64,000 nt of DNA from Acidimicrobiaceae bacterium (GTDB lineage: Bacteria > Actinomycetota > Acidimicrobiia > Acidimicrobiales > Aldehydirespiratoraceae): positions 48,897-112,896 of the forward strand of contig JAPPMP010000015.1 of NCBI GenBank assembly GCA_028819005.1, in the 5' to 3' direction. The notes below the pieces were generated by a model, which saw nothing but the letters and a program-made list of their open reading frames with translations, did not search any database and was not told the origin of the DNA. Positions 3,089-20,485 of this stretch are shown in pieces (position 1 is the stretch's first letter; the number at the start of each line of letters is the position of its first letter). The position numbers and the translations under genes are program-made.

Positions 3089-6000
3089 TTAGGACGGACT
3101 AGGCGAATCCTCGATGATCACCGTGTCGGAAGCTGAACGGCCGAACACCTCCGGCGCGTAGATCTCCTCGGCTTTGGCCGGAGGCGCCACGAAGGTTCCC
3201 GGCGTGGTCGCCCGAGCCACGTAGCTGTACTCGTGGGTGCCGGCCCACAGATACGACGAGAACGCCTCGGTCCGGTCGTCGCGCAAGTTCTGGTGCTCAT
3301 ACCAGGTCCACCGCCACCAATAATCGGCGGCGTCGCTGCGGGGCGCCTCGATCTCGCCCGTCACCGCCAACGCCGGGTTGAGGGCTTCGAACCCGGCGGG
3401 TAGCGGATCAACCAGAACCATGTTGGTGCGTCGGCTGTCGTTGACCATCGTCAGCTTGACCCGCACCTCGGCGCCGGCCACGACATGCCAGAAGCCGTCG
3501 GAGTCGAGCCACACATCGTCGGGATCGTTGATCGCCTCGTAGGTGCGCTGCACAACAAAGCCGCGATCTAGCGGACCCAACTCGAGATTTGTCGGGGCGT
3601 AGCGAAGCCCGAGTCGGTAGTAGAGACGGCCGCTGCCGTCATTCTGGACAGTGAGATCGGCGTCGCCCGCTGCGATCAGGTCCGCCATCGGAACCAGAGT
3701 AGCCCCACGATCGGTTGTCCGGCCCGAGAACTCGTGTTCAGCCACATATTCGTCGCCCAGCCAGACACGGGCGACGAAGTCGGGCTCCGCCGCTTCGAAC
3801 GTCTCGAAATACCTGTCGAGGGCCAACAGGATGAAGGAGTTCTCCTGAACATTGTTCCAACGGCCTTTGACCTGGTTGGACAACAACCCCGCCACGACCT
3901 TCACGATCAGATCTGAATCCGGGGCCATGGTGATCAGAGCGTCGAGCACGATGCCGTCGGCTCGGCGATCCGAAGCCAGGATCAAGTAGGCGTCTTCGCC
4001 GTAGTCGGTGACGAACGTCGCCGCTTCGGCCGTCTCGGTCACCCGGTTGTTGAAGACCCGCTCGATGTCAGCTTCGATGTCGTCATCTCCGACGACCGGC
4101 CATATCCAAGCCAATGCGTCCAGCTCGAGGTCCGCACCCCGACGGTTCCAGAGTTCACGAGCCGCGCGCAGGTCCCGGTCGCCGTCGAGCGCACGCACAT
4201 GCAGGGCGTAGGCCGACAACATGTCCTTTGACTTCCTGCTGTAGTCAGCGGGAATCCGCTCTTCGACGTTGCGCAAATACCAACGGCCGTTCTCCATCAC
4301 CGCATTCGGAACGGCGAAGCCTGCGGTTCGAGCCGTGACGAGAGCATGCATCGCCTGGATCGACGGGTACGGGTACGAGACGCCCTTTCGCGACCACCAG
4401 CCGAAGCCGCCGTCGGTGTGTTGCAGCGCGGCCAACTCGCTGATGTCGCTGCGCACAACTGCGTCGAGTTCCGCTGGAGTCGGCAGACCTTCCGCATCAA
4501 AGGCTCCGAGTACATCTCGCAGCGCAGAGACGGCCAGGATGCGGCTGGCGTATGCATCGGCGGAGGTGTAGCGGTATTCCGAGAGGTACAACACAGCGTC
4601 GGTCAAGGTCTGCAGGGCAGTGGAGGACGCGTTGAGCTCGAGCCCTCCGAACTGGGAGAACACATCTCGTGGTTCGGTGAGCGAATAGCCCACCACCCCG
4701 GAGTCCAGCACCCCGTAGGCCGCGAACGCCTCGCTCGTGGCCGGTGTGTAGACGGGCAGCGAAACTACCTGGGCATCGGCGTTGTCGCCCGACACGGCCG
4801 CGACCCGGAAACGGGCGGTGCCTGCAGAGGCGGTCGAAGCACCGAAGAGCACCTCCACCCGGTCGTTGGCCGGGACAGTTATCCGCCGGCCCGCCGGCCC
4901 TTCAAGGTTGAGGTTCGCGGTCTGCACGACCACATCTACCTCGGCCGGCGAATCAGTCTGGTTCTGCACCACGATCGGCAGATCGAACCGGTCGCCGAAG
5001 TTCAGGAACCTCGGAGCAGACGGCCGGACCTGCAGCGGCAGCCGCGCGGTGATTGCAGACTCGGCCGAACCGAAACGATCAACGCCATCAACCGCGACGG
5101 CCATCACTCGGTAGCGGGTGAGGTTGTCGGGCAAATCGAACTCGACAGTGGCAACACCACCGGCATCGGTCGCAACCTCAGGGTCGAACAGGGCCAGCGC
5201 GTCAAGGTTCTTGCGCACCTCGATCTGAAGGCCTTGGGCGCTGAGCCGGGTCGAAGAGTCGAAATCCGCTGAGGAGGATTCCTCGGCCATCTCGGCGTCA
5301 TCGGCCATGTCGTCACCCCCAAAATCATCCACCGCTGTCGCCGCGACAGTGGAGGTGGCCGCTCCATCACCTCCCTCACCACCAATGGAATCAAGCAACG
5401 CCTGCGGATTCTCAAGCAGGATGCCGTCGCGGGCGCGTTGCGCGCTCAGGTACACGCCCAGTGACCGGTAGAACACCTCGAGCGGGTCGACGAGCTGATA
5501 ACCCGAGAGCGAGAGCACCGCCTCGTCTGCCACAACCAACAGCACATCGGCATTGTCAACCGGTTCGCCGTCGGCGTCGTTCACTTGCACGGTCACGCTG
5601 GTGGAATCCCCCGGTTTCACCGCGTTTGCTGCCGGGGTGACCGTGATATCGAGCGCCCGCCGCGCCGGAGGCACGCGAAGCCGAACCTCCCCCGTCCCAT
5701 AGGCCGGACGGTGAGCGAAGCCGTCCAACACGGTGCCGTCATCGGCGGTTCGCGCTGTCGTCGACACGATCTCAACCCGCACCGTCAGTTCCGGGACATG
5801 ATCGTCGGTGATCGGCACCTCAAGCACAGCTGCGTGATCAGCGATCTCGAAAGTGCTCAGCTCGATGATCTCGTTGCGGGCGATCACCAAGAGTCCTGTC
5901 CCCGAACTGAACGGCGAATCGACTAGGATCTCAGCGGTGTCGCCCGCCGCGTAGGTCTCGGCGTCCGGGATGAGACTGACACTTTCCAACTCGACGTTCC

Positions 6001-9000
6001 GGCTCGGAACGCCGCTCTTTTCGCCGGCGACCCAACGGATCATTTCGCTGCGGTTTGCCCGCCCCGCGTCATCGACGACTCTGGCGTCGATGCGATAGCG
6101 ACCGCCGACTGCCGAATCGAATTCGCAGGCAACGGGCCCGTCTGCCGATGTCACGTTGCAGGTTTCGGCGTCTGCGGCGACTTCGGTCCATTCTCCGTCG
6201 ATGTACTCTTCGAGGAGCCGCGAAGCGGTGATCTCAAAGGCACGGCCGGCAACCGCGTTGCCGTCGAGGTCGGTGACGATTGCTTCAATGTCGAAGCCTT
6301 CTCCCGCTCTGACGAACGTCCGGGTTGAGCGAACGCCCACGTACAGGTCTGCGGCGTGCACCAGCACATCAGTCGATGAGGCCCACTGCCGGCGGTTCAC
6401 GTCAAGCACTCGAGCCTCCGCGGTGACCGTCGTGGGAAGTTGGCCGCCGTCGCCGTCGAAGTCCATCTGCAGGTAATGACTGCCGCCTGCGTCGGTCAAG
6501 CCCGAGAAGGCCTCGCGAACCGGCTCCTCGAGCGGACCACCGAAGCCGTAGTCGTCATCGGAGTGCCAGTCGCCGCCGAAATCGTTGTGATGCCACCACG
6601 GGGTCCACACACCGAATGTGAATTCGTTCCAGTTGGGCGGCGAATACGAGGCCTCCCGCGTGGTGACAATCCAGGAGACCTCCGCGTTGGGCAACGGACC
6701 GCCGGAGAAGTACCTGGCGTCCACGACCACCGTCGCGGGCTCGTCGACGAAGAACGGGCCTGGAGACTCCAAGCGAGCAATCACTTCGAACTCGGGGCGG
6801 CGGAACTCTTGAATCTGGAACTGATGGTAATGCCAGCTGTTCTCTCGGTCCCGTGGACCTTGTAACTCGATCCACGCATGGCCCAGGTTCGCTCCGTCAC
6901 GCAGTTCAATGGCGAGATCAAAGCCGCCGTGCTCGTCAAGACGGAAGCTCCCCTCAGCAAGTTCGCTGCCGAACGAATCAGAGGCTCGATAGGTCATCAG
7001 CTGTTGCGGCGGAAGGAACTCGAGGCTGCCATCGCCGCTCAGGTCGAGGTTGCGAACCCAGCCCTTCAGATGGAGCGTCTCGCCGGGCCGGTAGGCGCCG
7101 CGATCGTCGGCGGTGTGCCAAATCAGCTGATCCTGCAGTGACCATGCCCGCACCTTCGCCCGGTTGATGGCCTGGTCCTCACCGAGCGTTGCGACTATCC
7201 AGGCGTGTTCGCCGACAATTGAGGTGCGTACCAGTCCGTCGCTGTCGGTGGTGAGCGACGAGCCGCGTCCCCGCAGATCGATTTCGACGCCCTCCAACGG
7301 ATCACCAGAGCGCAAATCCGTGGTCCACACCACCACGTCACGATGGTCGGTGATCATGTCGACTCCGATATCAGTGTCCTGCACCCAGGCAACCACCGGA
7401 CGGTTGCTCCAAAAATCATTGTCCGCGTATGTAAGGTCGGCGAACCGCCCGACCCCCTCGACGATGGCGATCACATGTCCGCGGGCACCCCCAAGGGCGT
7501 CGTCGAGATCAATCCGAACCTCGGTGACGGCATCCGAATCGATCCCGGTATCGACCACCTCGTCGGCAACAAGAGTCCACGGCGGGGTGGGCAATTCTCC
7601 GTCGCGGGCCCTGTCCCAACGCTCGAGGAAGCTCTCGAACGAACCGTAGTCGCTCGGATCCACATCGTAGAGGCGCACCCGCAGCCGCTCGTGTTTGCGC
7701 ACGGTGACGGGAATCGTCTGTTGCTCGACGAGCGGATCGAGCGTCACGAGCCGTCGGCCCGATGCTTGGATGAACGGACGTGCTTCATCGATGTGGAACT
7801 CGATCGTCTCGGGCTGTCCCAACGCCTGGCCGAACTCGTCTTTGAGGGTCGCCGGGATCACCACTTCGTAGACCGTGTCCCCCACGGTCGGGGCAATGAT
7901 GTTGACTGAGCTGTAATCCACCCAGATGCGGGCGTCGACGAGCTCAGGCGATATCTGCAGGTCGGCGACGCCAAGCGTGGCGGGGTCGAGCACGTTGTTG
8001 AAGTACACGCTGAGCCAACTTCCGGGCCAACAGGGGTTCTGCGACGTACAGCCGCTTTCTTGCGCCCGCAGGGGCGCGTACGTGCGGGCCTGCGCCACCA
8101 GCGAGGCGTCGGAAGTGTTCGTTCCTTCAGCCGAAGGCACGTTCGGCCCGACTTCGATGGTTATCGCCGAGTCGGGTTCGAGTTCTGACACCGGCGTGAA
8201 CGCAACCCACGTACCGTCCACGGCCAGCCCGGTCCGGCGCTTGACGTCCTCATCGCTCTCGATCTCGGCGTCGGTGGCAAGGCGGATATCGCGCTCGCTG
8301 CCATCGGTGCTCAATGTGATTGTCCCAAGCACCGCGGCGGCGTCTACTCGTTGATCGAAGGCGACCATGAACACGGGCTGCAGGTCGAGCGAGTCGTGCT
8401 GCGGGGAGAGTGAGAGCACCGTGGGCGCAGGGGTCTCGAACTCGAAGCGGACCGTCTCAGCCAACTCGCCGCCGGACTGCGAAGTCGTCCCGGCTGGGAT
8501 CTCGACCGCATAGGAGGTCGCCATCGGCAGTCGGTCGAACACTGCCGGGTCATGCTCGAAACGCAGCGTTCGAGTACCGATCCACTGCCAGCGGCCCGGC
8601 AGCGACGGCGTCATCGTGACCGGAACACCAATCTCGCCGATCTGCGCGAGAGTGGTCAGCGGCACCATCGCCTGGTTGAAGGTGATGCTGACGAAAGGCG
8701 CTATCCCCACTTCGCCCTCGGGCTGCACCCGCAACACCTCCAAGGGTCCGGAGTCGACCGCCGGCGCTTCAACATCGGAATCCGTCGGGAACGGACTCTC
8801 GATCGTGGCGCCCACGCGCGGGCGCGGAAGACTCTCCGGCGGACGGTTGAATCCGACGGCGTCGTCATCTTCGCCGTCATCCCAGGCCTCGAGTCGATCG
8901 GTCACCGCGCTGATCTCGTCCTCGCTGAGCTCGCGGCCCTCGATCCGGGTCACCACCGCCAGGGTTTCGACACCGCCGGCACTGCCCTCGCTCAGTCGAA

Positions 9001-9196
9001 CCTCCAAGTTGGGTCCTTCGCGAGCCGACCCAGATCCGGGCCCAACCCCGGTTCGACTTCGGGAGTCACCGTCCGTATCCGGTTCTGCTGGGCCGTCCGG
9101 ATCCGCGGTCGGCGCAGGTTCGTCCTCGCTCGACAGCACACTGGCCAACACCATCAGGACGATCCCGACTGCCAGCCACCGCCAAAGATGCCTCAT
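3089..9196 (-). CDS. alpha-2-macroglobulin family protein (2035 aa), thioester motif absent
   Basis: It has an N-terminal hydrophobic signal/anchor MRHLWRWLAVGIVLMVLASVLS. The large multi-MG-domain architecture and the thioester-domain-like region (...GGFGWWSRKGVSYPYPSIQAMHALV) are present. Where CxEQ is expected the sequence reads YRYTSADA (4556-4576). Confidence 0.85.
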   Translation of the reverse strand: MRHLWRWLAVGIVLMVLASVLSSEDEPAPTADPDGPAEPDTDGDSRSRTGVGPGSGSAREGPNLEVRLSEGSAGGVETLAVVTRIEGRELSEDEISAVTDRLEAWDDGEDDDAVGFNRPPESLPRPRVGATIESPFPTDSDVEAPAVDSGPLEVLRVQPEGEVGIAPFVSITFNQAMVPLTTLAQIGEIGVPVTMTPSLPGRWQWIGTRTLRFEHDPAVFDRLPMATSYAVEIPAGTTSQSGGELAETVRFEFETPAPTVLSLSPQHDSLDLQPVFMVAFDQRVDAAAVLGTITLSTDGSERDIRLATDAEIESDEDVKRRTGLAVDGTWVAFTPVSELEPDSAITIEVGPNVPSAEGTNTSDASLVAQARTYAPLRAQESGCTSQNPCWPGSWLSVYFNNVLDPATLGVADLQISPELVDARIWVDYSSVNIIAPTVGDTVYEVVIPATLKDEFGQALGQPETIEFHIDEARPFIQASGRRLVTLDPLVEQQTIPVTVRKHERLRVRLYDVDPSDYGSFESFLERWDRARDGELPTPPWTLVADEVVDTGIDSDAVTEVRIDLDDALGGARGHVIAIVEGVGRFADLTYADNDFWSNRPVVAWVQDTDIGVDMITDHRDVVVWTTDLRSGDPLEGVEIDLRGRGSSLTTDSDGLVRTSIVGEHAWIVATLGEDQAINRAKVRAWSLQDQLIWHTADDRGAYRPGETLHLKGWVRNLDLSGDGSLEFLPPQQLMTYRASDSFGSELAEGSFRLDEHGGFDLAIELRDGANLGHAWIELQGPRDRENSWHYHQFQIQEFRRPEFEVIARLESPGPFFVDEPATVVVDARYFSGGPLPNAEVSWIVTTREASYSPPNWNEFTFGVWTPWWHHNDFGGDWHSDDDYGFGGPLEEPVREAFSGLTDAGGSHYLQMDFDGDGGQLPTTVTAEARVLDVNRRQWASSTDVLVHAADLYVGVRSTRTFVRAGEGFDIEAIVTDLDGNAVAGRAFEITASRLLEEYIDGEWTEVAADAETCNVTSADGPVACEFDSAVGGRYRIDARVVDDAGRANRSEMIRWVAGEKSGVPSRNVELESVSLIPDAETYAAGDTAEILVDSPFSSGTGLLVIARNEIIELSTFEIADHAAVLEVPITDDHVPELTVRVEIVSTTARTADDGTVLDGFAHRPAYGTGEVRLRVPPARRALDITVTPAANAVKPGDSTSVTVQVNDADGEPVDNADVLLVVADEAVLSLSGYQLVDPLEVFYRSLGVYLSAQRARDGILLENPQALLDSIGGEGGDGAATSTVAATAVDDFGGDDMADDAEMAEESSSADFDSSTRLSAQGLQIEVRKNLDALALFDPEVATDAGGVATVEFDLPDNLTRYRVMAVAVDGVDRFGSAESAITARLPLQVRPSAPRFLNFGDRFDLPIVVQNQTDSPAEVDVVVQTANLNLEGPAGRRITVPANDRVEVLFGASTASAGTARFRVAAVSGDNADAQVVSLPVYTPATSEAFAAYGVLDSGVVGYSLTEPRDVFSQFGGLELNASSTALQTLTDAVLYLSEYRYTSADAYASRILAVSALRDVLGAFDAEGLPTPAELDAVVRSDISELAALQHTDGGFGWWSRKGVSYPYPSIQAMHALVTARTAGFAVPNAVMENGRWYLRNVEERIPADYSRKSKDMLSAYALHVRALDGDRDLRAARELWNRRGADLELDALAWIWPVVGDDDIEADIERVFNNRVTETAEAATFVTDYGEDAYLILASDRRADGIVLDALITMAPDSDLIVKVVAGLLSNQVKGRWNNVQENSFILLALDRYFETFEAAEPDFVARVWLGDEYVAEHEFSGRTTDRGATLVPMADLIAAGDADLTVQNDGSGRLYYRLGLRYAPTNLELGPLDRGFVVQRTYEAINDPDDVWLDSDGFWHVVAGAEVRVKLTMVNDSRRTNMVLVDPLPAGFEALNPALAVTGEIEAPRSDAADYWWRWTWYEHQNLRDDRTEAFSSYLWAGTHEYSYVARATTPGTFVAPPAKAEEIYAPEVFGRSASDTVIIEDSPSPS

Positions 9197-15778: not shown

Positions 15779-16789
15779 TCAACTGCCAGACGGGCAGGCT
15801 GGCGGTCGCGTATTGTCGGTCAGTCGGATTCGCTGTTCGGCGAGGGTCCTGCCGGCGGCCCAGTTGTTGGTTTCCAGTGCCTTCAAGATCCCTGCGAGGT
15901 TGCGGTCTCGGACGCGCTCGAGTTCGCGGGTTGTGTACTGGCCAGATTGGGCGTCGGATTGGGCAACCAACATGTCGACGAGTTCGTCGCTCAGTTCAGG
16001 GACATCGGTCAACTTGCTCCACGGGAGAGCCAACGTCGGGCCGAATTGGCGGATGAAGTGTTCCACACCACCCTCCCCTCCGGCTGCGCGGTACGTCTCG
16101 AAGAGTCCCATCTGAGCCCAGCGCAGCCCGAACCCGTAACGGATAGCGTCATCGATCTCTTCGGTGGTGGCAACGCCGTCGTTGATGAGCCACAGCGCCT
16201 CGCGCCAGACCGCCTCAAGCAGGCGATCGGCAATGAAAGCGTCGATCTCGACGCGGACATGCAACGGCTTCATCGAGATGGACGAATAGGCGTCCATTGC
16301 CGCGGCAATCGCCCACCCCTCAGTCCGTTCGCCGCCGCATACCTCTACCAGCGGCAACAGATACACGGGGTTGAACGGATGGCCGACAAGCAGACGCTCC
16401 GGGTGGGCCAACGAACCTTGAAGGTCGGTTGGTTTGATTCCCGATGTCGATGATGCGATGACCGCCTCGGGTGGAGCCTGCCGATCGATCTCAGCAAGGA
16501 TGTCGCGTTTCACGTCAAGGTTCTCGGGAGCACTCTCCTGGACGTGTTGTGCCTCCGCGACGGCTTCGGCGATCGAGTCGACGACGGTCACGGCGCCCTC
16601 GGTGACGGGAGGCAGTTCAAGATCCCCCCACGCGGCGCGGGCGTTGGCGAACACCTCGTCGATGATCCGCCCAGTCTCGGGGTTGGGATCGACAACCGAC
16701 ACGTCAACCCCGTGCAGAGCGAACCGGGCAGCCCAGGCCGAACCGATCACCCCGGCGCCGACGACAGCGGCTTTTTCGACTACAGCCAT
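15779..16789 (-). CDS. L-carnitine dehydrogenase-like 3-hydroxyacyl-CoA dehydrogenase family protein
   Basis: It has the Rossmann N-terminus KAAVVGAGVIGSAWAARFALHGVDVSVVDP and a 3HCDH-type C-domain. The context is BKACE and a gamma-butyrobetaine dioxygenase-like gene. Confidence 0.7.
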   Translation of the reverse strand: MAVVEKAAVVGAGVIGSAWAARFALHGVDVSVVDPNPETGRIIDEVFANARAAWGDLELPPVTEGAVTVVDSIAEAVAEAQHVQESAPENLDVKRDILAEIDRQAPPEAVIASSTSGIKPTDLQGSLAHPERLLVGHPFNPVYLLPLVEVCGGERTEGWAIAAAMDAYSSISMKPLHVRVEIDAFIADRLLEAVWREALWLINDGVATTEEIDDAIRYGFGLRWAQMGLFETYRAAGGEGGVEHFIRQFGPTLALPWSKLTDVPELSDELVDMLVAQSDAQSGQYTTRELERVRDRNLAGILKALETNNWAAGRTLAEQRIRLTDNTRPPACPSGS

Positions 16790-16807
16790 GCTTGTCTGTC
16801 AGCTCCC

Positions 16808-17695
16808 TCAGCCGTGCTTGGCCAGACCGAGCATGTCGCGAACCTCGGCGGGACCCATGACGTCGATGTTGAGATTGTCGAGGATCTGCACGGCGCGTTC
16901 GACGAGCATGCCGTTGGTGGCAAGAACCCCCTTTTCGAGATACAGGTTGTCCTCCAGACCGACACGGACGTTGCCGCCCACCAGGACCGCGGCAGCCACA
17001 TACTCCAGTTGCCGACGGCCGATGGAGAAGGTGGAGAACGTCCAATGGTCGGGCGTGTTGTTGACCATCGCCATGAGGGTGTTCATATCGTCGGGCGCTC
17101 CCCAGGGAACCCCCATGCACAACTGCGCCAGGATCGGCGGCTCCAATAGACCCCGAGCCTCCATCTGTTTGGCGTACCAGAGATGGCCGGTGTCGAAACA
17201 CTCCAACTCCGGAACCACGTCCAGCTCGGCGAACTGGCGGGCAAGCTCGTCGAGCTGTGAGGTGGAGTTCGTCATGATGTAGTCGCCCTCGCCGAAGTTC
17301 ATGGTCCCCATGTCGATCGTGGCGATCTCTGGCATGCACTCTCGAATATGAGCCATCCGTTCGGTGGCGCCGGCCATGTCGGTGCCCGCTTCGTCGAGGG
17401 GAAGCGGATTCTCGACCCCGCCCAGGGTGATGTCCGCTCCGGTTCCCCCGGTCAGGTTGATGATGACGTCGGTGTCCGATGACCGAATCCGATCGGTCAC
17501 CTCCTTGTAGAGGTCGACGTCACGGCTCTGCTTCCCGGTGGCGAGATCACGGACATGACAGTGCACGATCGCGGCACCCGCTTTGGCCGCTTCGATTGCC
17601 GCGTTGGCGATCTCTTCGGGCGCGACCGGGACGTGGACGGACTTGCCGACCGTGTCACCTCCCCCGGTGACCGCACAGGTGATGAAAGTGCTCAT
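16808..17695 (-). CDS. beta-keto acid cleavage enzyme (BKACE / 3-keto-5-aminohexanoate cleavage, DUF849) family
   Basis: The N-terminus MSTFITCAVTGGGDT...EIANAAIEAAKAGAAIVHCHVRD is typical of the BKACE family. Confidence 0.85.
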   Translation of the reverse strand: MSTFITCAVTGGGDTVGKSVHVPVAPEEIANAAIEAAKAGAAIVHCHVRDLATGKQSRDVDLYKEVTDRIRSSDTDVIINLTGGTGADITLGGVENPLPLDEAGTDMAGATERMAHIRECMPEIATIDMGTMNFGEGDYIMTNSTSQLDELARQFAELDVVPELECFDTGHLWYAKQMEARGLLEPPILAQLCMGVPWGAPDDMNTLMAMVNNTPDHWTFSTFSIGRRQLEYVAAAVLVGGNVRVGLEDNLYLEKGVLATNGMLVERAVQILDNLNIDVMGPAEVRDMLGLAKHG

Positions 17696-17716
17696 TGGTT
17701 CCCCTCTCTACTCGGG

Positions 17717-18907
17717 TCATTCGAGCCTGTCAGAAATTCGGGCGGTCTGGTGGCGGCGCGTCAAGACTCGCAGTCGCGAATGCACCTCATCGTGATCGAC
17801 ATAGGCGCCTCGCAGCACTCTTCTGCCTGTGGTCTCGCTGAAAGGACCGCGTCCGTGCAGGATCCGACGGTTGTCGAAGGCCACTAGTTCGCCGGGCGAA
17901 AATACGGAGCGGAGTTGGTATTCGTCGCTGCGGGCCAGATCCGAGAATCGCCGCAAAGCCTCATACGCCAAGGGAACGTCGGATTCGGGCATGTCGGGAA
18001 ACGCCCTCACTGGGTGAAACGTCCGAAATGTCAACGGGCTGCCGGGTCCTCCGTGATCGATCAACGGGCCACTCCAACGATGGTCATGATCTGGTGAGCG
18101 GTTGAAGAAGATCCATTTGGCGCGCGAGAGAATCCCATAGACCTCCGGTTCATTGTCACGAAGGTGCTCCGCCACCGCGTAGCCGTCGGTCATGTGGCTC
18201 AATCCCCCGGTGCAGTCGTTCACTTGACAGTGCAGTAGCTGGTACCCGGGCGGAGTCTCGCGGGTCGGAAGGTCAGCATGGGGAGCCAAGGGCAAAGCCG
18301 TGTTGGCCACCGAACCCGGATCCAGATCAGCGGTCACGGCCCACGTGGTGCCGAAGTTGGTGTCGCGCAGCGCACCGATTCGAAGTCCCACCTCGGTCAC
18401 CACTTCTTCGTCGCGTCCAAGTTCGACTAGACGGGCAATGCCCAACTCCGCGAGCGCCTTGAGCCATGCTCGCAACGCCTCGTCGTCTTGAAGCACGTGC
18501 GGCCCGTTGAAGGTCGGCAGTTCCGGCAATGTCGAAGCCGTCCAAGTCTTCACTGGGGGAATGTGGGCACTCTGGGTGTGGCGACCCTCATGCACATGAC
18601 GCAACCAGCCCGAGTGGTAAAGCGACGGCGGATAGCCCCTCCAGGTCACTTCCAAGTCGCCGTTTGGGGCCACAGCAACTCCACTGAGCGCTTCTGGCGA
18701 TGGCAGGTCCGCCGGGTCGAGTTTGTTCTCCCTGGTCTGTTCGTCGATCGATTCGTCGCCCATGCGGTTCTCGAACAACCAGAGCGCGTAGGCGCGCATC
18801 TCTTCCCCATCGGGCCAGCGAATCACCACAAAATCTCCGTCTCGCCGAGCACCAGAAATCGGATGCTCGACGTAGCGATAGAAATCCGGCGTCCTACCTA
18901 GAGACAC
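17717..18907 (-). CDS. gamma-butyrobetaine dioxygenase-like Fe(II)/2-oxoglutarate oxygenase (TauD/TfdA superfamily with DUF971-like N-domain)
   Basis: The N-terminal part ...FVVIRWPDGEEMRAYALWL is DUF971-like. An HxD facial-triad element is present in LAPHADLPT, and the C-terminal region reads RRILHGR. Confidence 0.75.
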   Translation of the reverse strand: MSLGRTPDFYRYVEHPISGARRDGDFVVIRWPDGEEMRAYALWLFENRMGDESIDEQTRENKLDPADLPSPEALSGVAVAPNGDLEVTWRGYPPSLYHSGWLRHVHEGRHTQSAHIPPVKTWTASTLPELPTFNGPHVLQDDEALRAWLKALAELGIARLVELGRDEEVVTEVGLRIGALRDTNFGTTWAVTADLDPGSVANTALPLAPHADLPTRETPPGYQLLHCQVNDCTGGLSHMTDGYAVAEHLRDNEPEVYGILSRAKWIFFNRSPDHDHRWSGPLIDHGGPGSPLTFRTFHPVRAFPDMPESDVPLAYEALRRFSDLARSDEYQLRSVFSPGELVAFDNRRILHGRGPFSETTGRRVLRGAYVDHDEVHSRLRVLTRRHQTARISDRLE

Positions 18908-18931: not shown

Positions 18932-19801
18932 TCAGTTATCGCGGAGTAGTTCGATGAGCGAGCTGGAGTCCCAGCGACCGTGTCCCCGGCGCTGGAGACG
19001 GGCGTAGAACTGGTCTACCAACGCGGTCACCGGCAGGTAGGCCCCGATTCGCTCGGCTTGCGCCAGACAGATGCCGAGATCCTTGCGCATCCAGTCGAGC
19101 GCGAAACCGTGATCGAAGCTGCGCTGCGCCATTGTTCGGCTTCGGTTCTCCATCTGCCAGGAACCGGCAGCTCCTTTGGAAATCGTCTCGACGACTTCGC
19201 CGACGTCGAGTCCGGCTCGAATTGCGAAGTCGAGTCCCTCGCTGAGTCCTTGGATAAGCCCCGCTATACAGATCTGGTTGACCATCTTGGTCAGTTGTCC
19301 CGAACCGGGTCCGCCGAGCAGCCGACAGGCCCGCGAGTAAGCGGCGATCATCGGCGCTGCGCGGTCGAAGTCAGCCCGGTCCCCTCCGCACATCACAGTG
19401 AGCACGCCATTTTCGGCGCCGGCTTGACCTCCGGATATGGGCGCGTCCACAAAACCGACGCCTGCCGCCGCTGCAGCTGCGTGCAGTTCTCGAGCCAGGT
19501 CAGCCGATGCGGTTGTGTGGTCGACCAGGACCGAACCGGGCTTCATCGTCGACAGAACTCCGTTGTCGGCGGTGGTTACGGCCCGCACATCAGGATCGTC
19601 GCCCACGCACAACATCACGAATTCGGCACCCTCCGCGGCCGAAGCAGGTGTCGACGCTCGGGTCCCGCCGTGCTCGTTCACCCAGGCTTCGGCGCGCGCC
19701 TCGGTCCGGTTGTAGACGGTGACGTTGTGTCCTGCACCTTGGAGGTGCCCTGCCATCGGATATCCCATTACGCCCAGCCCGACAAATGCACATTTGCTCA
19801 T
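18932..19801 (-). CDS. NAD(P)-dependent beta-hydroxyacid dehydrogenase (3-hydroxyisobutyrate dehydrogenase-like)
   Basis: The sequence CAFVGLGVMGYPMAGHLQGAGHNVTVYNRT and the rest of the protein match the HIBADH family. Confidence 0.85.
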   Translation of the reverse strand: MSKCAFVGLGVMGYPMAGHLQGAGHNVTVYNRTEARAEAWVNEHGGTRASTPASAAEGAEFVMLCVGDDPDVRAVTTADNGVLSTMKPGSVLVDHTTASADLARELHAAAAAAGVGFVDAPISGGQAGAENGVLTVMCGGDRADFDRAAPMIAAYSRACRLLGGPGSGQLTKMVNQICIAGLIQGLSEGLDFAIRAGLDVGEVVETISKGAAGSWQMENRSRTMAQRSFDHGFALDWMRKDLGICLAQAERIGAYLPVTALVDQFYARLQRRGHGRWDSSSLIELLRDN

Positions 19802-19858
19802 GCGAGCAGACTAGAGCGGCAGGCCCGGAGGCGGGCAGTCTGGGTTAAGGTCCTACCC

Positions 19859-20485
19859 ATGGACGCACCGGTGCGGATCGTTGTCTGGTCGGACTTTCTC
19901 TGACCTTGGTGTTATGTCGGAACAGTTCGTCTCGACCAACTCAAAGAGCGCTTCGGCGACCAGATTGACGTTGCTTGGCGGTCGTTCCTGTTGAGAACCG
20001 AACCCAAGGCAGCATCGCTTGACAAGTTCATCCGATACACGAAGTCTTGGCGACGCCCCGCAGAGATGGAGCCTGCGGTGGTGTTCAACGAGTGGGCTTC
20101 AGGAAACGAACCGCCTTCGTCGAGTTTGCCCGCGCAGGTGGCGGCCAAGTCAATGAAGATTCTTGCTCCCGACAATGTCGACGCTTTTCATCATCGGCTT
20201 CTTCGGGCCTACTTCACCGAGAACCGGACCATCTCGGACTGGTCGGTGTTGGGAGCGGTTGCGAGCGACGTCGGCGTCGACTCAGAAGAGTTTCTGGCCG
20301 CGACTCGACAGCGTGATCGCTCACTCACCGAGGAGGTGATTGCGGACCACAACGAGGCCATCAACAAAGGCATCACGGGAGTGCCTGCGATGATCTTCAA
20401 CGACACGTTCCCGATCCAGGGCGCCCAAGACTTCGACAGTCTGTCGAAGTGGACTGCGCGCCTGCTCGATCGCCAATCCGGGTGA
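19859..20485 (+). CDS. DsbA/FrnE-like thiol oxidoreductase with in-frame TGA (19901-19903) at the first Cys of CxxC; candidate selenoprotein, alternatively a nonsense pseudogene
   Basis: A single frame runs from ATG 19859 to TGA 20485, interrupted only by TGA 19901. Translation is MDAPVRIVVWSDFL[TGA]PWCYVGTVRLDQLKERFGDQIDVAWRSFLL..., and the DsbA-family pattern is W-SD-x-x-C-P-W-C-Y. An imperfect hairpin lies at 19906-19939. Confidence 0.6.

What the first reader, a model, noticed from the sequence alone, without database searches (positions are those of the whole stretch)
19859..20485. TGA exactly at the first Cys of the CxxC motif of a DsbA/FrnE-like oxidoreductase: candidate selenoprotein (U-P-W-C)
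The frame from ATG 19859 to the stop at 20485 is continuous except for a single TGA at 19901-19903.

- **Position of the TGA.** Translation gives MDAPVRIVVWSDFL[TGA]PWCYVGTVRLDQLKERFGDQIDVAWRSFLLRTEP. DsbA-family/FrnE-like proteins carry W-(S/T)-D-x-x-C-P-W-C-Y-x-G at this position, so the stop codon replaces the nucleophilic Cys.
- **No other damage.** Family-typical sequence continues on both sides of the TGA and no other lesion is present. The ORF track only reports the downstream 164 aa from TTG 19991, which would lack the active site.
- **Possible SECIS.** An imperfect hairpin lies 3-36 nt after the TGA, where bacterial SECIS elements sit. Its lower stem is TTGGT 19906-19910 paired with ACCAA 19935-19939, and its upper stem-loop is CGGA-ACAG-TTCG at 19918-19929.

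Sec/Cys interchange at redox CxxC sites is the classic signature of thiol-oxidoreductase selenoproteins. The alternative is a TGC/TGT-to-TGA nonsense mutation or a base-call error.
Basis: partly seen in the sequence, partly recalled or inferred. Interest (0 to 1): 0.85.

Follow-up and report, generated by a model that had tools for sequence, protein, structure and literature searches.

The report
Selenocysteine-containing FrnE/DsbA-like oxidoreductase gene
The stop codon inside this gene is almost certainly read as the rare amino acid selenocysteine, which makes it a real but ordinary member of a selenoprotein family described in 2005 that automatic gene callers still routinely cut short.

Summary
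Window 19859-20485 (+) is a 208-codon DsbA/FrnE-like frame with one in-frame TGA (19901-19903) at the first Cys of CxxC (W-S-D-F-L-TGA-P-W-C).

It is neither damage nor a sequencing error. All 80 related loci, from 80 Acidimicrobiales species at 96% down to 46% protein identity, carry TGA at this codon in an otherwise intact frame. Codon periodicity runs through it.

A conserved 7-bp hairpin with loop N-G-U-N-C lies 20 nt downstream (19917-19935). Two of its pairs covary and its synonymous sites are strongly constrained. It fits the published bacterial SECIS model.

TGA is also the commonest normal stop here, so recoding is local.

The family is already known: "DsbA-like protein" (COG2761/PF01323, UxxC), Zhang et al. 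2005. Structurally it is a cytoplasmic FrnE-type thioredoxin fold, with Sec at the N-cap of helix α1.

Not shown: selA/selB/selC/selD in this genome. None lies in the window or the 80 neighbourhoods, and whole genomes could not be scanned. Published tables list cultured Acidimicrobiales (Ilumatobacter, Ca. Microthrix) as SelD+/SelA+/SelB+.

Verdict: interpretation supported; new member of a known kind; modest interest.

The parts
19859..20485 (+). Complete coding sequence of a 208-residue FrnE/DsbA-like selenoprotein (Sec at residue 15; terminal stop TGA 20483-20485)
   Evidence: frame; PF01323, E=4.4e-25; FrnE PDB 5CNW/5CP1, E=5e-19. One search shows the start context M-x-x-P-V/I conserved, with in-frame stops just upstream of the Met in several loci. 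One search shows codon periodicity.
19901..19903 (+). In-frame TGA = predicted selenocysteine codon (U15), at the nucleophilic first position of the U-P-W-C redox motif
   Evidence: TGA in 81/81 sequences, zero entropy at all three positions. It aligns to Cys22 of DrFrnE and to Cys15 of Cys homologue P0020, which sits at the N-cap of helix α1 in the model.
19910..19912 (+). TGT = Cys18, the resolving residue of UxxC and the only Cys in the protein
   Evidence: Cys invariant in 81/81; the only Cys/stop positions are 15, 18 and 209.
19917..19935 (+). Conserved SECIS-like hairpin inside the coding sequence: 5' arm 19917-19923, loop 19924-19928 (A-G-U-U-C; G19925 and U19926 invariant in the family), 3' arm 19929-19935. 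It starts 13 nt after the UGA, and 20 nt lie between the UGA and the loop.
   Evidence: RNAalifold consensus. Pair counts: 89% of cells paired against 31-49% in slid registers, and pairs 24-34 (GC55/CG21/UA2) and 25-33 (AU61/GC12/GU4/UA1) covary. Synonymous-site constraint. Family mean energy -10.4 kcal/mol, but only -5.4 in the window because of an A·C mismatch at 19921/19931.
20384..20386 (+). CCT = Pro176, the conserved cis-proline of the thioredoxin fold (V175-P176 before strand β3)
   Evidence: Invariant column P176 in alignments A1 and A4. In the model, strand 177-180 follows it. That the peptide bond is cis is inferred from the fold family.
19802..19858 (.). 57-nt intergenic region shared with the divergently transcribed 3-hydroxyisobutyrate-dehydrogenase-like gene (18932-19801, -). 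Presumed promoter region; no element identified.
   Evidence: PF03446/PF14833 on the minus-strand ORF. One search found no sigma-70-like match. Function inferred only.

Best explanation
The gene encodes a cytoplasmic FrnE-type (DsbA-superfamily) thiol-disulfide oxidoreductase whose nucleophilic active-site residue is selenocysteine. During translation the UGA at 19901-19903 is not read as stop. A hairpin in the mRNA 13 nt downstream (19917-19935), with apical loop N-G-U-N-C, is bound by the Sec-specific elongation factor SelB carrying Sec-tRNA(Sec), which inserts Sec at codon 15. The product has a U15-P-W-C18 centre at the N-terminus of helix α1, next to the cis-Pro176 loop. It would cycle between selenolate/thiol and selenenylsulfide forms to reduce or isomerise disulfides in partner proteins. 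Shown here: the TGA and the frame around it are conserved; the hairpin is under selection; the fold and the position of the residue are as stated. Inferred: SelB-dependent insertion, the redox chemistry, the substrates and the reductant.
For: (1) TGA at the same codon in 80/80 loci from 80 species, at 96-46% protein identity and 41-71% GC. All have 190-203 intact codons after it. (2) Third-position variability far exceeds first/second on both sides of the TGA in one frame, e.g. Ser-4 0.28/0.23/1.79 bits and Pro+1 0/0/1.74, while the TGA has zero entropy. (3) Sec/Cys pair: 30 full-length homologues carry CPWC at the same place, and 90 of the 120 best database homologues are N-truncated calls that begin just after it. 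(4) Hairpin: RNAalifold finds the 7-bp stem independently. 89.4% of cells pair, against 31-49% in slid registers. Covariation is 0.219 against 0.115 in shuffles (0/500 reach it), with 36 double-sided changes. (5) Synonymous sites in the stem are constrained relative to the rest of the same genes: CGT 65/81 (background 12%), GGG 54/81 (18%), Leu CTC/CTT 58/58 (44%); the Arg third base pairs with its partner in 78/81 (17.8 expected). (6) Geometry fits the published bSECIS model (3-9 nt loop, 4-16 bp stem, G then G/U in the loop, 16-37 nt spacing): the loop is N-G-U-N-C with G and U invariant, the stem is 7 bp, the spacing is 20 nt. (7) TGA is the ordinary stop for 23/38 long ORFs in the window and for 49/81 of these genes themselves, so recoding is local. 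(8) Fold: the model of the Cys homologue has pLDDT 95.5, with residue 15 at the N-cap of α1. Best PDB matches are D. radiodurans FrnE, TM 0.80-0.84, and by sequence E=5e-19. (9) The family is already catalogued as a UxxC selenoprotein. (10) Cultured Acidimicrobiales (Ilumatobacter coccineus, I. nonamiensis, Ca. Microthrix parvicella) are listed as SelD+/SelA+/SelB+ with 15, 10 and 7 selenoproteins. Four of the 80 loci are Ca. Microthrix MAGs. All 84 complete Actinomarinales genomes (same class) have selA/B/C/D.
Against: No selA, selB, selD or tRNA-Sec lies in the 64-kb window or in the 80 neighbourhoods, about 1.4 Mb in all, and the rest of these genomes could not be scanned. So the machinery is documented only at order/class level from the literature. 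The window's own hairpin is weakened by an A·C mismatch: it is -5.4 kcal/mol, above the -7.5 threshold of the bSECIS model, although the 60-nt MFE fold (-10.4) contains it. Three of the seven pairs are fixed by the V-G-T-V-R-L-D peptide. Two of three independent Cys-form homologues still form 6/7 pairs, so the presence of a hairpin alone is weak evidence; the case rests on covariation and synonymous-site bias. P-values ignore relatedness among sequences. Rfam finds nothing, which is expected for bacterial SECIS. No selenium incorporation has been measured.
Confidence: 0.93

Rival explanations
1. Pseudogene: a TGC/TGT-to-TGA nonsense mutation has inactivated a Cys-type FrnE-like gene, and the frame is decaying.
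For: A single-base change from TGT/TGC gives TGA. Gene callers treat it as a stop.
Against: The identical TGA is present in 80/80 species with no second lesion anywhere. Purifying selection acts on both sides in frame. Decay would give assorted lesions and reversions.
Confidence: 0.01
2. Sequencing or assembly error at base 19903.
For: It cannot be excluded from one sequence alone, and no reads are available.
Against: Independent assemblies 91-93% identical in DNA (L001, L004), and 78 more distant ones, have the same TGA.
Confidence: 0.005
3. The TGA is a genuine stop. The functional product starts downstream (e.g. TTG 19991 or a near-cognate start just after the TGA) and lacks the CxxC, while the upstream 14 codons form a small leader ORF or a regulatory element.
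For: Database gene calls of 135-190 aa begin downstream. A hairpin next to a stop codon could be regulatory.
Against: The 14 upstream codons encode strand β1 and the W-S-D-F-L active-site approach of the thioredoxin fold, and are conserved as protein in the same frame. P-W-C-Y directly after the TGA is invariant. A product without β1 and the redox centre would not be a DsbA-like enzyme. The called start positions vary between homologues, as expected for artefacts.
Confidence: 0.02
4. Site-specific read-through without selenium: the UGA is decoded by a near-cognate tRNA (Trp or Cys), or by Cys mis-charged on tRNA-Sec, stimulated by the downstream hairpin.
For: The Sec machinery was not seen in this genome. 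Downstream structures can stimulate read-through. UGA-to-Cys insertion through the Sec pathway is known when selenium is scarce (my own knowledge).
Against: Keeping TGA rather than TGC/TGT over this depth of divergence makes no sense if Cys is the intended residue, since Cys forms of the family exist. The loop G-U and the spacing match the SelB-type bSECIS model. The order is documented as Sec-decoding. Trp at a CxxC nucleophile would be inactive.
Confidence: 0.03

Closest known systems
DsbA-like selenoprotein family ('DsbA-like protein', COG2761/PF01323, UxxC; 'form 1' in the 2026 review): Zhang, Fomenko & Gladyshev 2005 (PMC1088965); Peng et al. 2016 (PMC5029168); PMC13188914
   Same: Same Pfam domain, same UxxC motif with Sec at the first Cys position, Cys-containing homologues widespread, and a SECIS-like stem-loop directly downstream with a G in a small apical loop.
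   Different: Nothing in kind. The published examples are Sargasso Sea reads, deltaproteobacteria and clostridia. Here the host is an uncultured Acidimicrobiaceae lineage, and the Sec form is found in all 80 sampled species of the order. I could not align this gene to the published reference sequences (AACY01178397, NIP15863.1), which these tools do not hold.
FrnE of Deinococcus radiodurans (DR_0659; PDB 5CNW, 5CO3, 5XWH), FrnE subfamily cd03024
   Same: Best sequence match in the PDB (E=5e-19) and best structural match (TM 0.80-0.84). CP(W/F)C-type motif, no signal peptide, DsbA-like thioredoxin fold with helical insertion. [quoted passage not shown]
   Different: DrFrnE has Cys, not Sec, and a C-terminal CX4C tail (residues 239-244) used to regenerate the active site. 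This protein is 208 aa, ends before that tail and has no other Cys. In this it resembles S. roseofulvus and D. maricopensis FrnE, so it must be regenerated in a different, unknown way.
Periplasmic DsbA (E. coli type, CPHC) and Gram-positive DsbA/BdbD
   Same: Same superfamily fold and the same Pfam family.
   Different: Only 4 residues precede strand β1, so there is no signal peptide or lipobox. Structural similarity is weaker (TM 0.55-0.66). The motif is UPWC, not CPHC. No DsbB-like partner gene lies nearby. It works like a cytoplasmic reductase/isomerase, not like a periplasmic oxidase.
Bacterial SECIS consensus (bSECISearch model; E. coli fdhF element as the archetype)
   Same: The stem-loop lies inside the coding sequence just 3' of the UGA. 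It has a small apical loop with G followed by U, a 7-bp upper stem and 20-nt spacing.
   Different: No bulged U or extended lower stem is conserved. In the window the stem carries an A·C mismatch and falls short of the -7.5 kcal/mol threshold on its own. SelB binding has not been tested.

Membership tests
DsbA-like selenoprotein family (form 1) | DSBA-like thioredoxin domain (PF01323 / COG2761) | tested here: met
   PF01323 E=4.4e-25, 89 bits (cut-off 25.6), residues 7-196. FrnE PDB entries E=5e-19.
DsbA-like selenoprotein family (form 1) | In-frame TGA aligned with the first Cys of CxxC in Cys-containing homologues (UxxC Sec/Cys pair) | tested here: met
   W-S-D-F-L-TGA-P-W-C against W-S-D-F-L-C-P-W-C in 30 full-length homologues and in DrFrnE.
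DsbA-like selenoprotein family (form 1) | TGA-containing orthologues in other organisms, with conservation on both sides of the TGA | tested here: met
   80/80 loci, intact frames, codon periodicity across the TGA.
DsbA-like selenoprotein family (form 1) | bSECIS geometry: 3-9 nt apical loop, 4-16 bp upper stem, G in the first two loop positions followed by G/U, 16-37 nt between UGA and loop (PMC13188914) | tested here: met
   loop N-G-U-N-C (G and U invariant), 7-bp stem with two covarying pairs, 20 nt spacing; synonymous-site constraint.
DsbA-like selenoprotein family (form 1) | bSECIS stability: MFE at or below -7.5 kcal/mol | tested here: inconclusive
   67/81 family members pass, mean -10.4. 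The window's minimal hairpin is -5.4 (A·C mismatch), but the 60-nt MFE fold that contains it is -10.4.
DsbA-like selenoprotein family (form 1) | Sec-decoding machinery (selA, selB, selD, tRNA-Sec) in the same genome | not testable with these tools
   Absent from the window and the 80 neighbourhoods. The stepping-stone search through actinobacterial SelA did not reach a labelled Acidimicrobiales SelA. Order-level literature: Ilumatobacter and Ca. Microthrix are SelD+/SelA+/SelB+.
DsbA-like selenoprotein family (form 1) | Selenium actually incorporated at the UGA | not testable with these tools
   Needs 75Se labelling or mass spectrometry.
FrnE subfamily of cytoplasmic DsbA-like oxidoreductases (cd03024) | Closest sequence and fold relatives are FrnE proteins; CP(W/F)C-type motif | tested here: met
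   DrFrnE is the top hit by sequence and by Foldseek (TM 0.80-0.84). The motif is U-P-W-C.
FrnE subfamily of cytoplasmic DsbA-like oxidoreductases (cd03024) | No export signal (cytoplasmic) | tested here: met
   strand β1 starts at residue 5, so there is no room for a signal peptide. This is by inspection; no dedicated predictor was available.
FrnE subfamily of cytoplasmic DsbA-like oxidoreductases (cd03024) | C-terminal CXXXXC regeneration motif (present in many members, not all) | tested here: not met
   the only Cys is C18, and the protein ends at residue 208. S. roseofulvus and D. maricopensis FrnE also lack the motif, so it is not strictly defining.
Periplasmic DsbA (E. coli type) | Signal peptide, CPHC motif, DsbB partner | tested here: not met
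   no signal peptide, UPWC motif, no DsbB-like neighbour, TM only 0.55-0.66 to periplasmic DsbAs.

The most novel reading that the evidence does not exclude
The Sec form may be fixed across the whole order. It is in 80 of 80 sampled Acidimicrobiales species from marine, sponge, soil and wastewater lineages, with no Cys reversion among the best matches. Its SECIS is written into the codons of helix α1 (Y-V-G-T-V-R-L-D). The peptide alone imposes three of the seven base pairs, and Cys-type relatives still form 6 of 7 pairs. This leaves open that a codon-imposed palindrome existed before Sec and was exapted as a SECIS. That would be a concrete route by which a redox Cys becomes Sec. It also leaves open that the RNA structure now constrains the protein sequence (L/V/I25 co-varies with the Gly21 wobble base, and T/A/S22 with the Arg24 wobble base).
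Probability: 0.2. Interest if true: 0.5.

Novelty: new member of a known kind. Interest (0 to 1): 0.28.

Why it matters
Three practical or contextual points; none is a conceptual advance.

1. Annotation. This gene and its orthologues are systematically mis-called. 90 of the 120 closest database entries are N-terminally truncated proteins that lack the active site, and none carries a U. Functional inventories of Acidimicrobiales, which are abundant in oceans, sponges and activated sludge, therefore miss a redox enzyme and understate selenium dependence.

2. Distribution. Finding the Sec form in every one of 80 sampled species suggests strong, lineage-wide selection for selenium at this site. 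That adds to recent evidence that class Acidimicrobiia is a selenium-using clade.

3. A teaching example. The 81-sequence alignment gives an unusually clean natural data set of an RNA structure (SECIS) and a protein helix constraining the same nucleotides.

Tried and rejected
1. Sec machinery near the gene. tblastn with E. coli SelA/B/D and with Arthrobacter and Tsukamurella SelA/B/D against the window plus 80 loci gave no hit. ARAGORN on all of them found no tRNA-Sec. A 97-nt 'tRNA-Val' in L037 was not supported by Rfam.

2. Same-genome link by stepping stones. The route was plasmid SelD, then actinobacterial sel clusters, then a SelA profile search (all Micrococcaceae/Mycobacteriales), then 50%-identity representatives, then cluster names and loci. 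Representatives at 48-54% identity come from Planctomycetota, Chloroflexota, Gemmatimonadota, Tectomicrobia and Actinomycetota alike, so none could be assigned to Acidimicrobiales. tblastx of the SelA loci against my Acidimicrobiales DNA was uninformative. An exact contig-length match (19,731 bp, P0448 against L073) turned out to be a different record, i.e. coincidence. I left the third large protein search unused rather than guess a query.

3. Other selenoprotein genes as independent evidence of Sec decoding. A GC3 screen, a gene-map gap analysis, a Sec/Cys tblastn screen over 13,307 TGA-centred peptides and a SECIS-geometry scan of the window gave only off-frame noise and ordinary gene ends.

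4. Cys-form control for the hairpin. It was inconclusive: 6/7, 3/7 and 6/7 pairs.

5. Rfam, at gathering and permissive thresholds: no SECIS family hit.

7. The hairpin 19887-19905 that encloses the TGA: rejected as a by-product of the W-S-D...U-P codons. Its only free pair forms in 28/81 sequences.

8. The long + strand ORF 18980-19903, in frame with the N-terminus: rejected as the antisense shadow of the dehydrogenase gene on the minus strand. Homologues have stops just upstream of the Met.

A Cys homologue was modelled instead.
Full report
**1. The observation**

Window 19859-20485 on the + strand is a single frame of 208 sense codons. It is interrupted once, by TGA at 19901-19903 (codon 15), and closed by TGA at 20483-20485. 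The mechanical ORF list gives only the 164-aa piece from TTG 19991.

With Cys in place of the stop, the protein matches Pfam DSBA (PF01323) over residues 7-196 with E=4.4e-25. Its best solved relatives are the FrnE protein of Deinococcus radiodurans (E=5e-19) and SCO1869 of Streptomyces. The TGA lies opposite the first Cys of their CPWC motif.

The long + strand ORF 18980-19903, which shares this frame, is only the antisense shadow of a real minus-strand gene. That gene (18932-19801) is an NAD-binding 3-hydroxyisobutyrate-dehydrogenase-like protein. ATG 19859 is the start: in several homologues an in-frame stop lies directly upstream of the equivalent Met.

**2. Damage, error or recoding?**

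A search of about 5.8 billion proteins gave the first clue. Of the 120 best homologues, 90 are N-terminally shortened gene calls that begin just after the CxxC position. The other 30 are full-length proteins with W-S-D-F-L-C-P-W-C. None was deposited with a U.

I then fetched the DNA of the 80 best relatives in the one-genome-per-species collection. Nearly all are labelled Acidimicrobiales or Acidimicrobiia MAGs. They span 96% to 46% protein identity and 41% to 71% G+C. Every one carries TGA at exactly this codon, within W/Y-S/T-D-F/Y-L/I-TGA-P-W-C. Every one has 190-203 uninterrupted codons after it.

Two of them (L001, L004) are independent assemblies 91-93% identical in DNA to the window, which disposes of a base-call error.

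Column entropies show the coding signature on both sides of the TGA in one frame. Third positions vary far more than first and second positions, for example Ser-4 at 0.28/0.23/1.79 bits and Pro+1 at 0/0/1.74. The three TGA bases never vary. A decaying pseudogene would show assorted lesions, and a leader-peptide arrangement would not conserve strand β1 and the active-site approach as protein.

TGA is also the commonest ordinary stop codon. It ends 23 of 38 long ORFs in the window and 49 of the 81 DsbA-like genes themselves. The genetic code is therefore standard, and the internal TGA must be recoded locally.

**3. The recoding signal**

I aligned the 60 nt around the TGA from all 81 sequences. 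RNAalifold predicts one helix: 7 bp closing a 5-nt loop. In window coordinates the arms are 19917-19923 and 19929-19935, and the loop is 19924-19928.

Counting pairs on a 9-pair version of this helix (the 7 bp extended by one pair at each end) gives 89% of cells paired, against 31-49% when the 3' arm is slid by 1-3 columns. The covariation score is 0.219 against 0.115 in shuffles (0 of 500 reach it). Two pairs change on both sides: GC55/CG21/UA2 and AU61/GC12/GU4/UA1.

Three of the seven pairs are dictated by the peptide V-G-T-V-R-L-D. I therefore tested the four pairs that involve a synonymous third position against codon usage in the rest of the same genes:

- Arg is CGT in 65/81 (background 12%).
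- Gly is GGG in 54/81 (background 18%).
- Leu is CTC or CTT in 58/58 (background 44%).
- Val is GTC or GTT in 77/81 (background 52%).
- The Arg third base pairs with its partner in 78/81, where 17.8 are expected.

These tests ignore relatedness among the sequences, but the effects are very large, and the switches recur in separate sub-groups.

The loop reads N-G-U-N-C, with G and U invariant, and 20 nt separate the UGA from the loop. This is the published bacterial SECIS model: 3-9 nt loop, 4-16 bp stem, G then G/U at the start of the loop, 16-37 nt spacing (PMC13188914).

The family's mean hairpin energy is -10.4 kcal/mol, and 67 of 81 members pass the -7.5 threshold. The window, like L001 and L060, has GGA instead of GGG. 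That puts an A·C mismatch in the stem and leaves only -5.4 kcal/mol for the minimal hairpin. The 60-nt MFE fold (-10.4) still contains it.

Its family mean is +0.16 kcal/mol, none of 81 sequences passes, and the lower helix pairs in only 67% of cells. The window segment as a whole also folds no better than shuffles.

**4. What the protein is**

An AlphaFold model of the closest full-length Cys homologue was built from a 24-sequence family alignment. This homologue (P0020) is 49% identical, with the same numbering and the same WSDFLCPWCYVGTVRL segment. The model has pLDDT 95.5 and pTM 0.91.

Strand β1 spans residues 5-11 and helix α1 starts at residue 16. Residue 15, the TGA codon here, therefore sits at the N-cap of α1, the classical position of the nucleophile in thioredoxin-fold oxidoreductases. 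The invariant V175-P176 precedes strand β3.

Foldseek against the PDB puts D. radiodurans FrnE first (TM 0.80-0.84). Next come SCO1869 and other cytosolic DsbA-like proteins (DsbM, YjbH, HCCA isomerase, kappa-class GST). Periplasmic DsbAs come well behind, at TM 0.55-0.66.

Only four residues precede β1, so there is no signal peptide. FrnE proteins are cytoplasmic thiol-disulfide oxidoreductases with a CP(W/F)C motif. DrFrnE reduces and isomerises disulfides in vitro, contributes to cadmium, diamide and oxidative-stress tolerance, and uses a C-terminal CX4C motif to regenerate its active site (PMC8945050). The window protein has no Cys other than C18 and ends before such a tail, as do S. roseofulvus and D. 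maricopensis FrnE.

The most likely mechanism is therefore a U15/C18 selenolate-thiol to selenenylsulfide cycle acting on cytoplasmic disulfides, with an unidentified external reductant. This step is inferred from the family, not shown.

The neighbouring genes give no functional hint. They are a dehydrogenase, a TauD-type dioxygenase, BKACE, 3-hydroxyacyl-CoA dehydrogenase, a phosphoribosyltransferase, an HTH regulator, a glyoxalase-fold protein and a photolyase.

**5. The Sec machinery**

Neither E. coli nor actinobacterial SelA, SelB or SelD finds anything in the window or the 80 neighbourhoods, about 1.4 Mb in all. ARAGORN finds no tRNA-Sec there. This only shows that the machinery is not linked to the gene.

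I tried to reach an Acidimicrobiales SelA by stepping stones, so that I could ask whether it lies on the same chromosomes. The route went from plasmid-borne actinobacterial sel clusters to a profile search, then to 50%-identity representatives, then to cluster names and loci. Representatives at about 50% identity came from many phyla, and none could be assigned. An exact contig-length match proved coincidental.

The literature supplies order-level support. Table S1/S2 of Peng et al. 2016 lists Ilumatobacter coccineus, I. nonamiensis and Candidatus Microthrix parvicella, all Acidimicrobiales, as SelD+/SelA+/SelB+ with 15, 10 and 7 selenoproteins. Acidimicrobium ferrooxidans is listed as negative. 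Four of my 80 loci are Ca. Microthrix MAGs. A 2026 preprint finds selA, selB, selC and selD in all 84 complete genomes of Actinomarinales, a sister order in the same class.

**6. Comparison with what is known, and novelty**

A Sec-containing 'DsbA-like protein' family (COG2761, the FrnE COG; Pfam PF01323; motif UxxC; a SECIS-like stem-loop with a G in a small apical loop) was described from the Sargasso Sea in 2005 (PMC1088965). It was found in Anaeromyxobacter, Desulfovibrio and Desulfotomaculum in 2006 and counted in 41 organisms in 2016. Reviews of 2022 and 2026 list it as 'DsbA-like protein' and 'DsbA-like protein form 1' respectively.

The gene here meets every sequence-level criterion of that family. 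It is a new member in an uncultured Acidimicrobiaceae lineage, not a new kind of thing.

Three modest additions come out of this work. The Sec form is present in all 80 sampled species of the order. The SECIS register and loop are defined by covariation. Automated annotation misses the gene almost everywhere.

The most novel reading not excluded is that the hairpin is partly imposed by the helix-α1 peptide. Cys forms still make 6 of 7 pairs. The hairpin may therefore have existed before Sec and been exapted as a SECIS. I give that about 0.2.

**7. Verdict**

- Observation: confirmed.
- Interpretation (selenoprotein, U-P-W-C): supported, at about 0.93.
A conserved one in another register is.
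- Novelty: new member of a known kind.
- Interest: about 0.28. This is a sound true positive and a useful annotation fix, but not surprising to a specialist.

Noticed in passing
window 18980-19903 (+): A 307-codon open frame runs into the DsbA-like N-terminus and ends at the same TGA. It is the antisense shadow of the real minus-strand dehydrogenase gene 18932-19801 (PF03446/PF14833). It would mislead a longest-ORF gene map, and it did mislead my greedy one.
   Followed up: yes
window 19887-19905 (+): A 7-bp hairpin (GGTCGGA-CTTTC-TCTGACC) whose 3' arm contains the Sec TGA was flagged by the terminator scan. Across 81 sequences only the pairs fixed by the W-S-D...U-P codons form; the one free position pairs in 28/81. 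It is a coding by-product.
   Followed up: yes
protein database hits P0001-P0120: 90 of the 120 closest homologues are N-truncated gene calls lacking the active site, and none carries U. This selenoprotein is systematically mis-annotated in public MAG and metagenome gene sets.
   Followed up: yes
L083:3055, L086:3046 (Cys-form homologues): Two of three independent Cys-type relatives still form 6 of the 7 SECIS stem pairs (L086: -12.2 kcal/mol). This could be a fossil SECIS after Sec-to-Cys conversion, or a palindrome imposed by the peptide that predates Sec.
   Followed up: partly
window 19921/19931; also L001 and L060: The window and its closest relative carry GGA instead of GGG at Gly21. This puts an A·C mismatch in the middle of the SECIS stem and halves its stability (-5.4 against a family mean of -10.4 kcal/mol). 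The effect on Sec insertion efficiency is unknown.
   Followed up: partly
L087 (Arthrobacter sp. YA7-1 plasmid pYA7-1a, NZ_CP110115.1 29.5-39.4 kb): A conjugative plasmid carries a complete selB-selA / selD cluster, with a tRNA-like sequence in the selA-selD spacer, beside a formate dehydrogenase operon and a Tn3-family transposase. The Sec-decoding trait is packaged as mobile DNA here. Tsukamurella plasmid 17 (L088) has the same arrangement.
   Followed up: no
L014 (CAXMSE010000035.1): This contig is labelled 'uncultured Gammaproteobacteria bacterium', but its DsbA-like Sec gene is 57% identical to the window's and sits among the Acidimicrobiales sequences. It is probably a mis-binned or mislabelled contig.
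   Followed up: no
L037:2667-2763 (+): ARAGORN called a 97-nt 'tRNA-Val (gac)' with the anticodon at position 38. Rfam found no tRNA there at gathering threshold, so it is probably a false positive.
   Followed up: yes
window 3089-9196 (-): A very long open reading frame (2035 codons) appears in the greedy gene map. It was not examined.
   Followed up: no
window 15779-18907 (-): A run of co-oriented genes lies upstream of the divergent dehydrogenase: 3-hydroxyacyl-CoA dehydrogenase, BKACE (beta-keto acid cleavage enzyme) and a TauD-family dioxygenase. It looks like a small catabolic cluster, possibly of the carnitine or betaine type. Only Pfam assignments were made.
   Followed up: partly
L089 (ENA ERZ25039476 contig_4799): An actinomycete-like MAG locus has selD-selA-selB directly beside glycine reductase genes (GrdA, GrdB), thioredoxin and related genes. 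GrdA and GrdB appear as split gene calls, as expected for selenoproteins.
   Followed up: no
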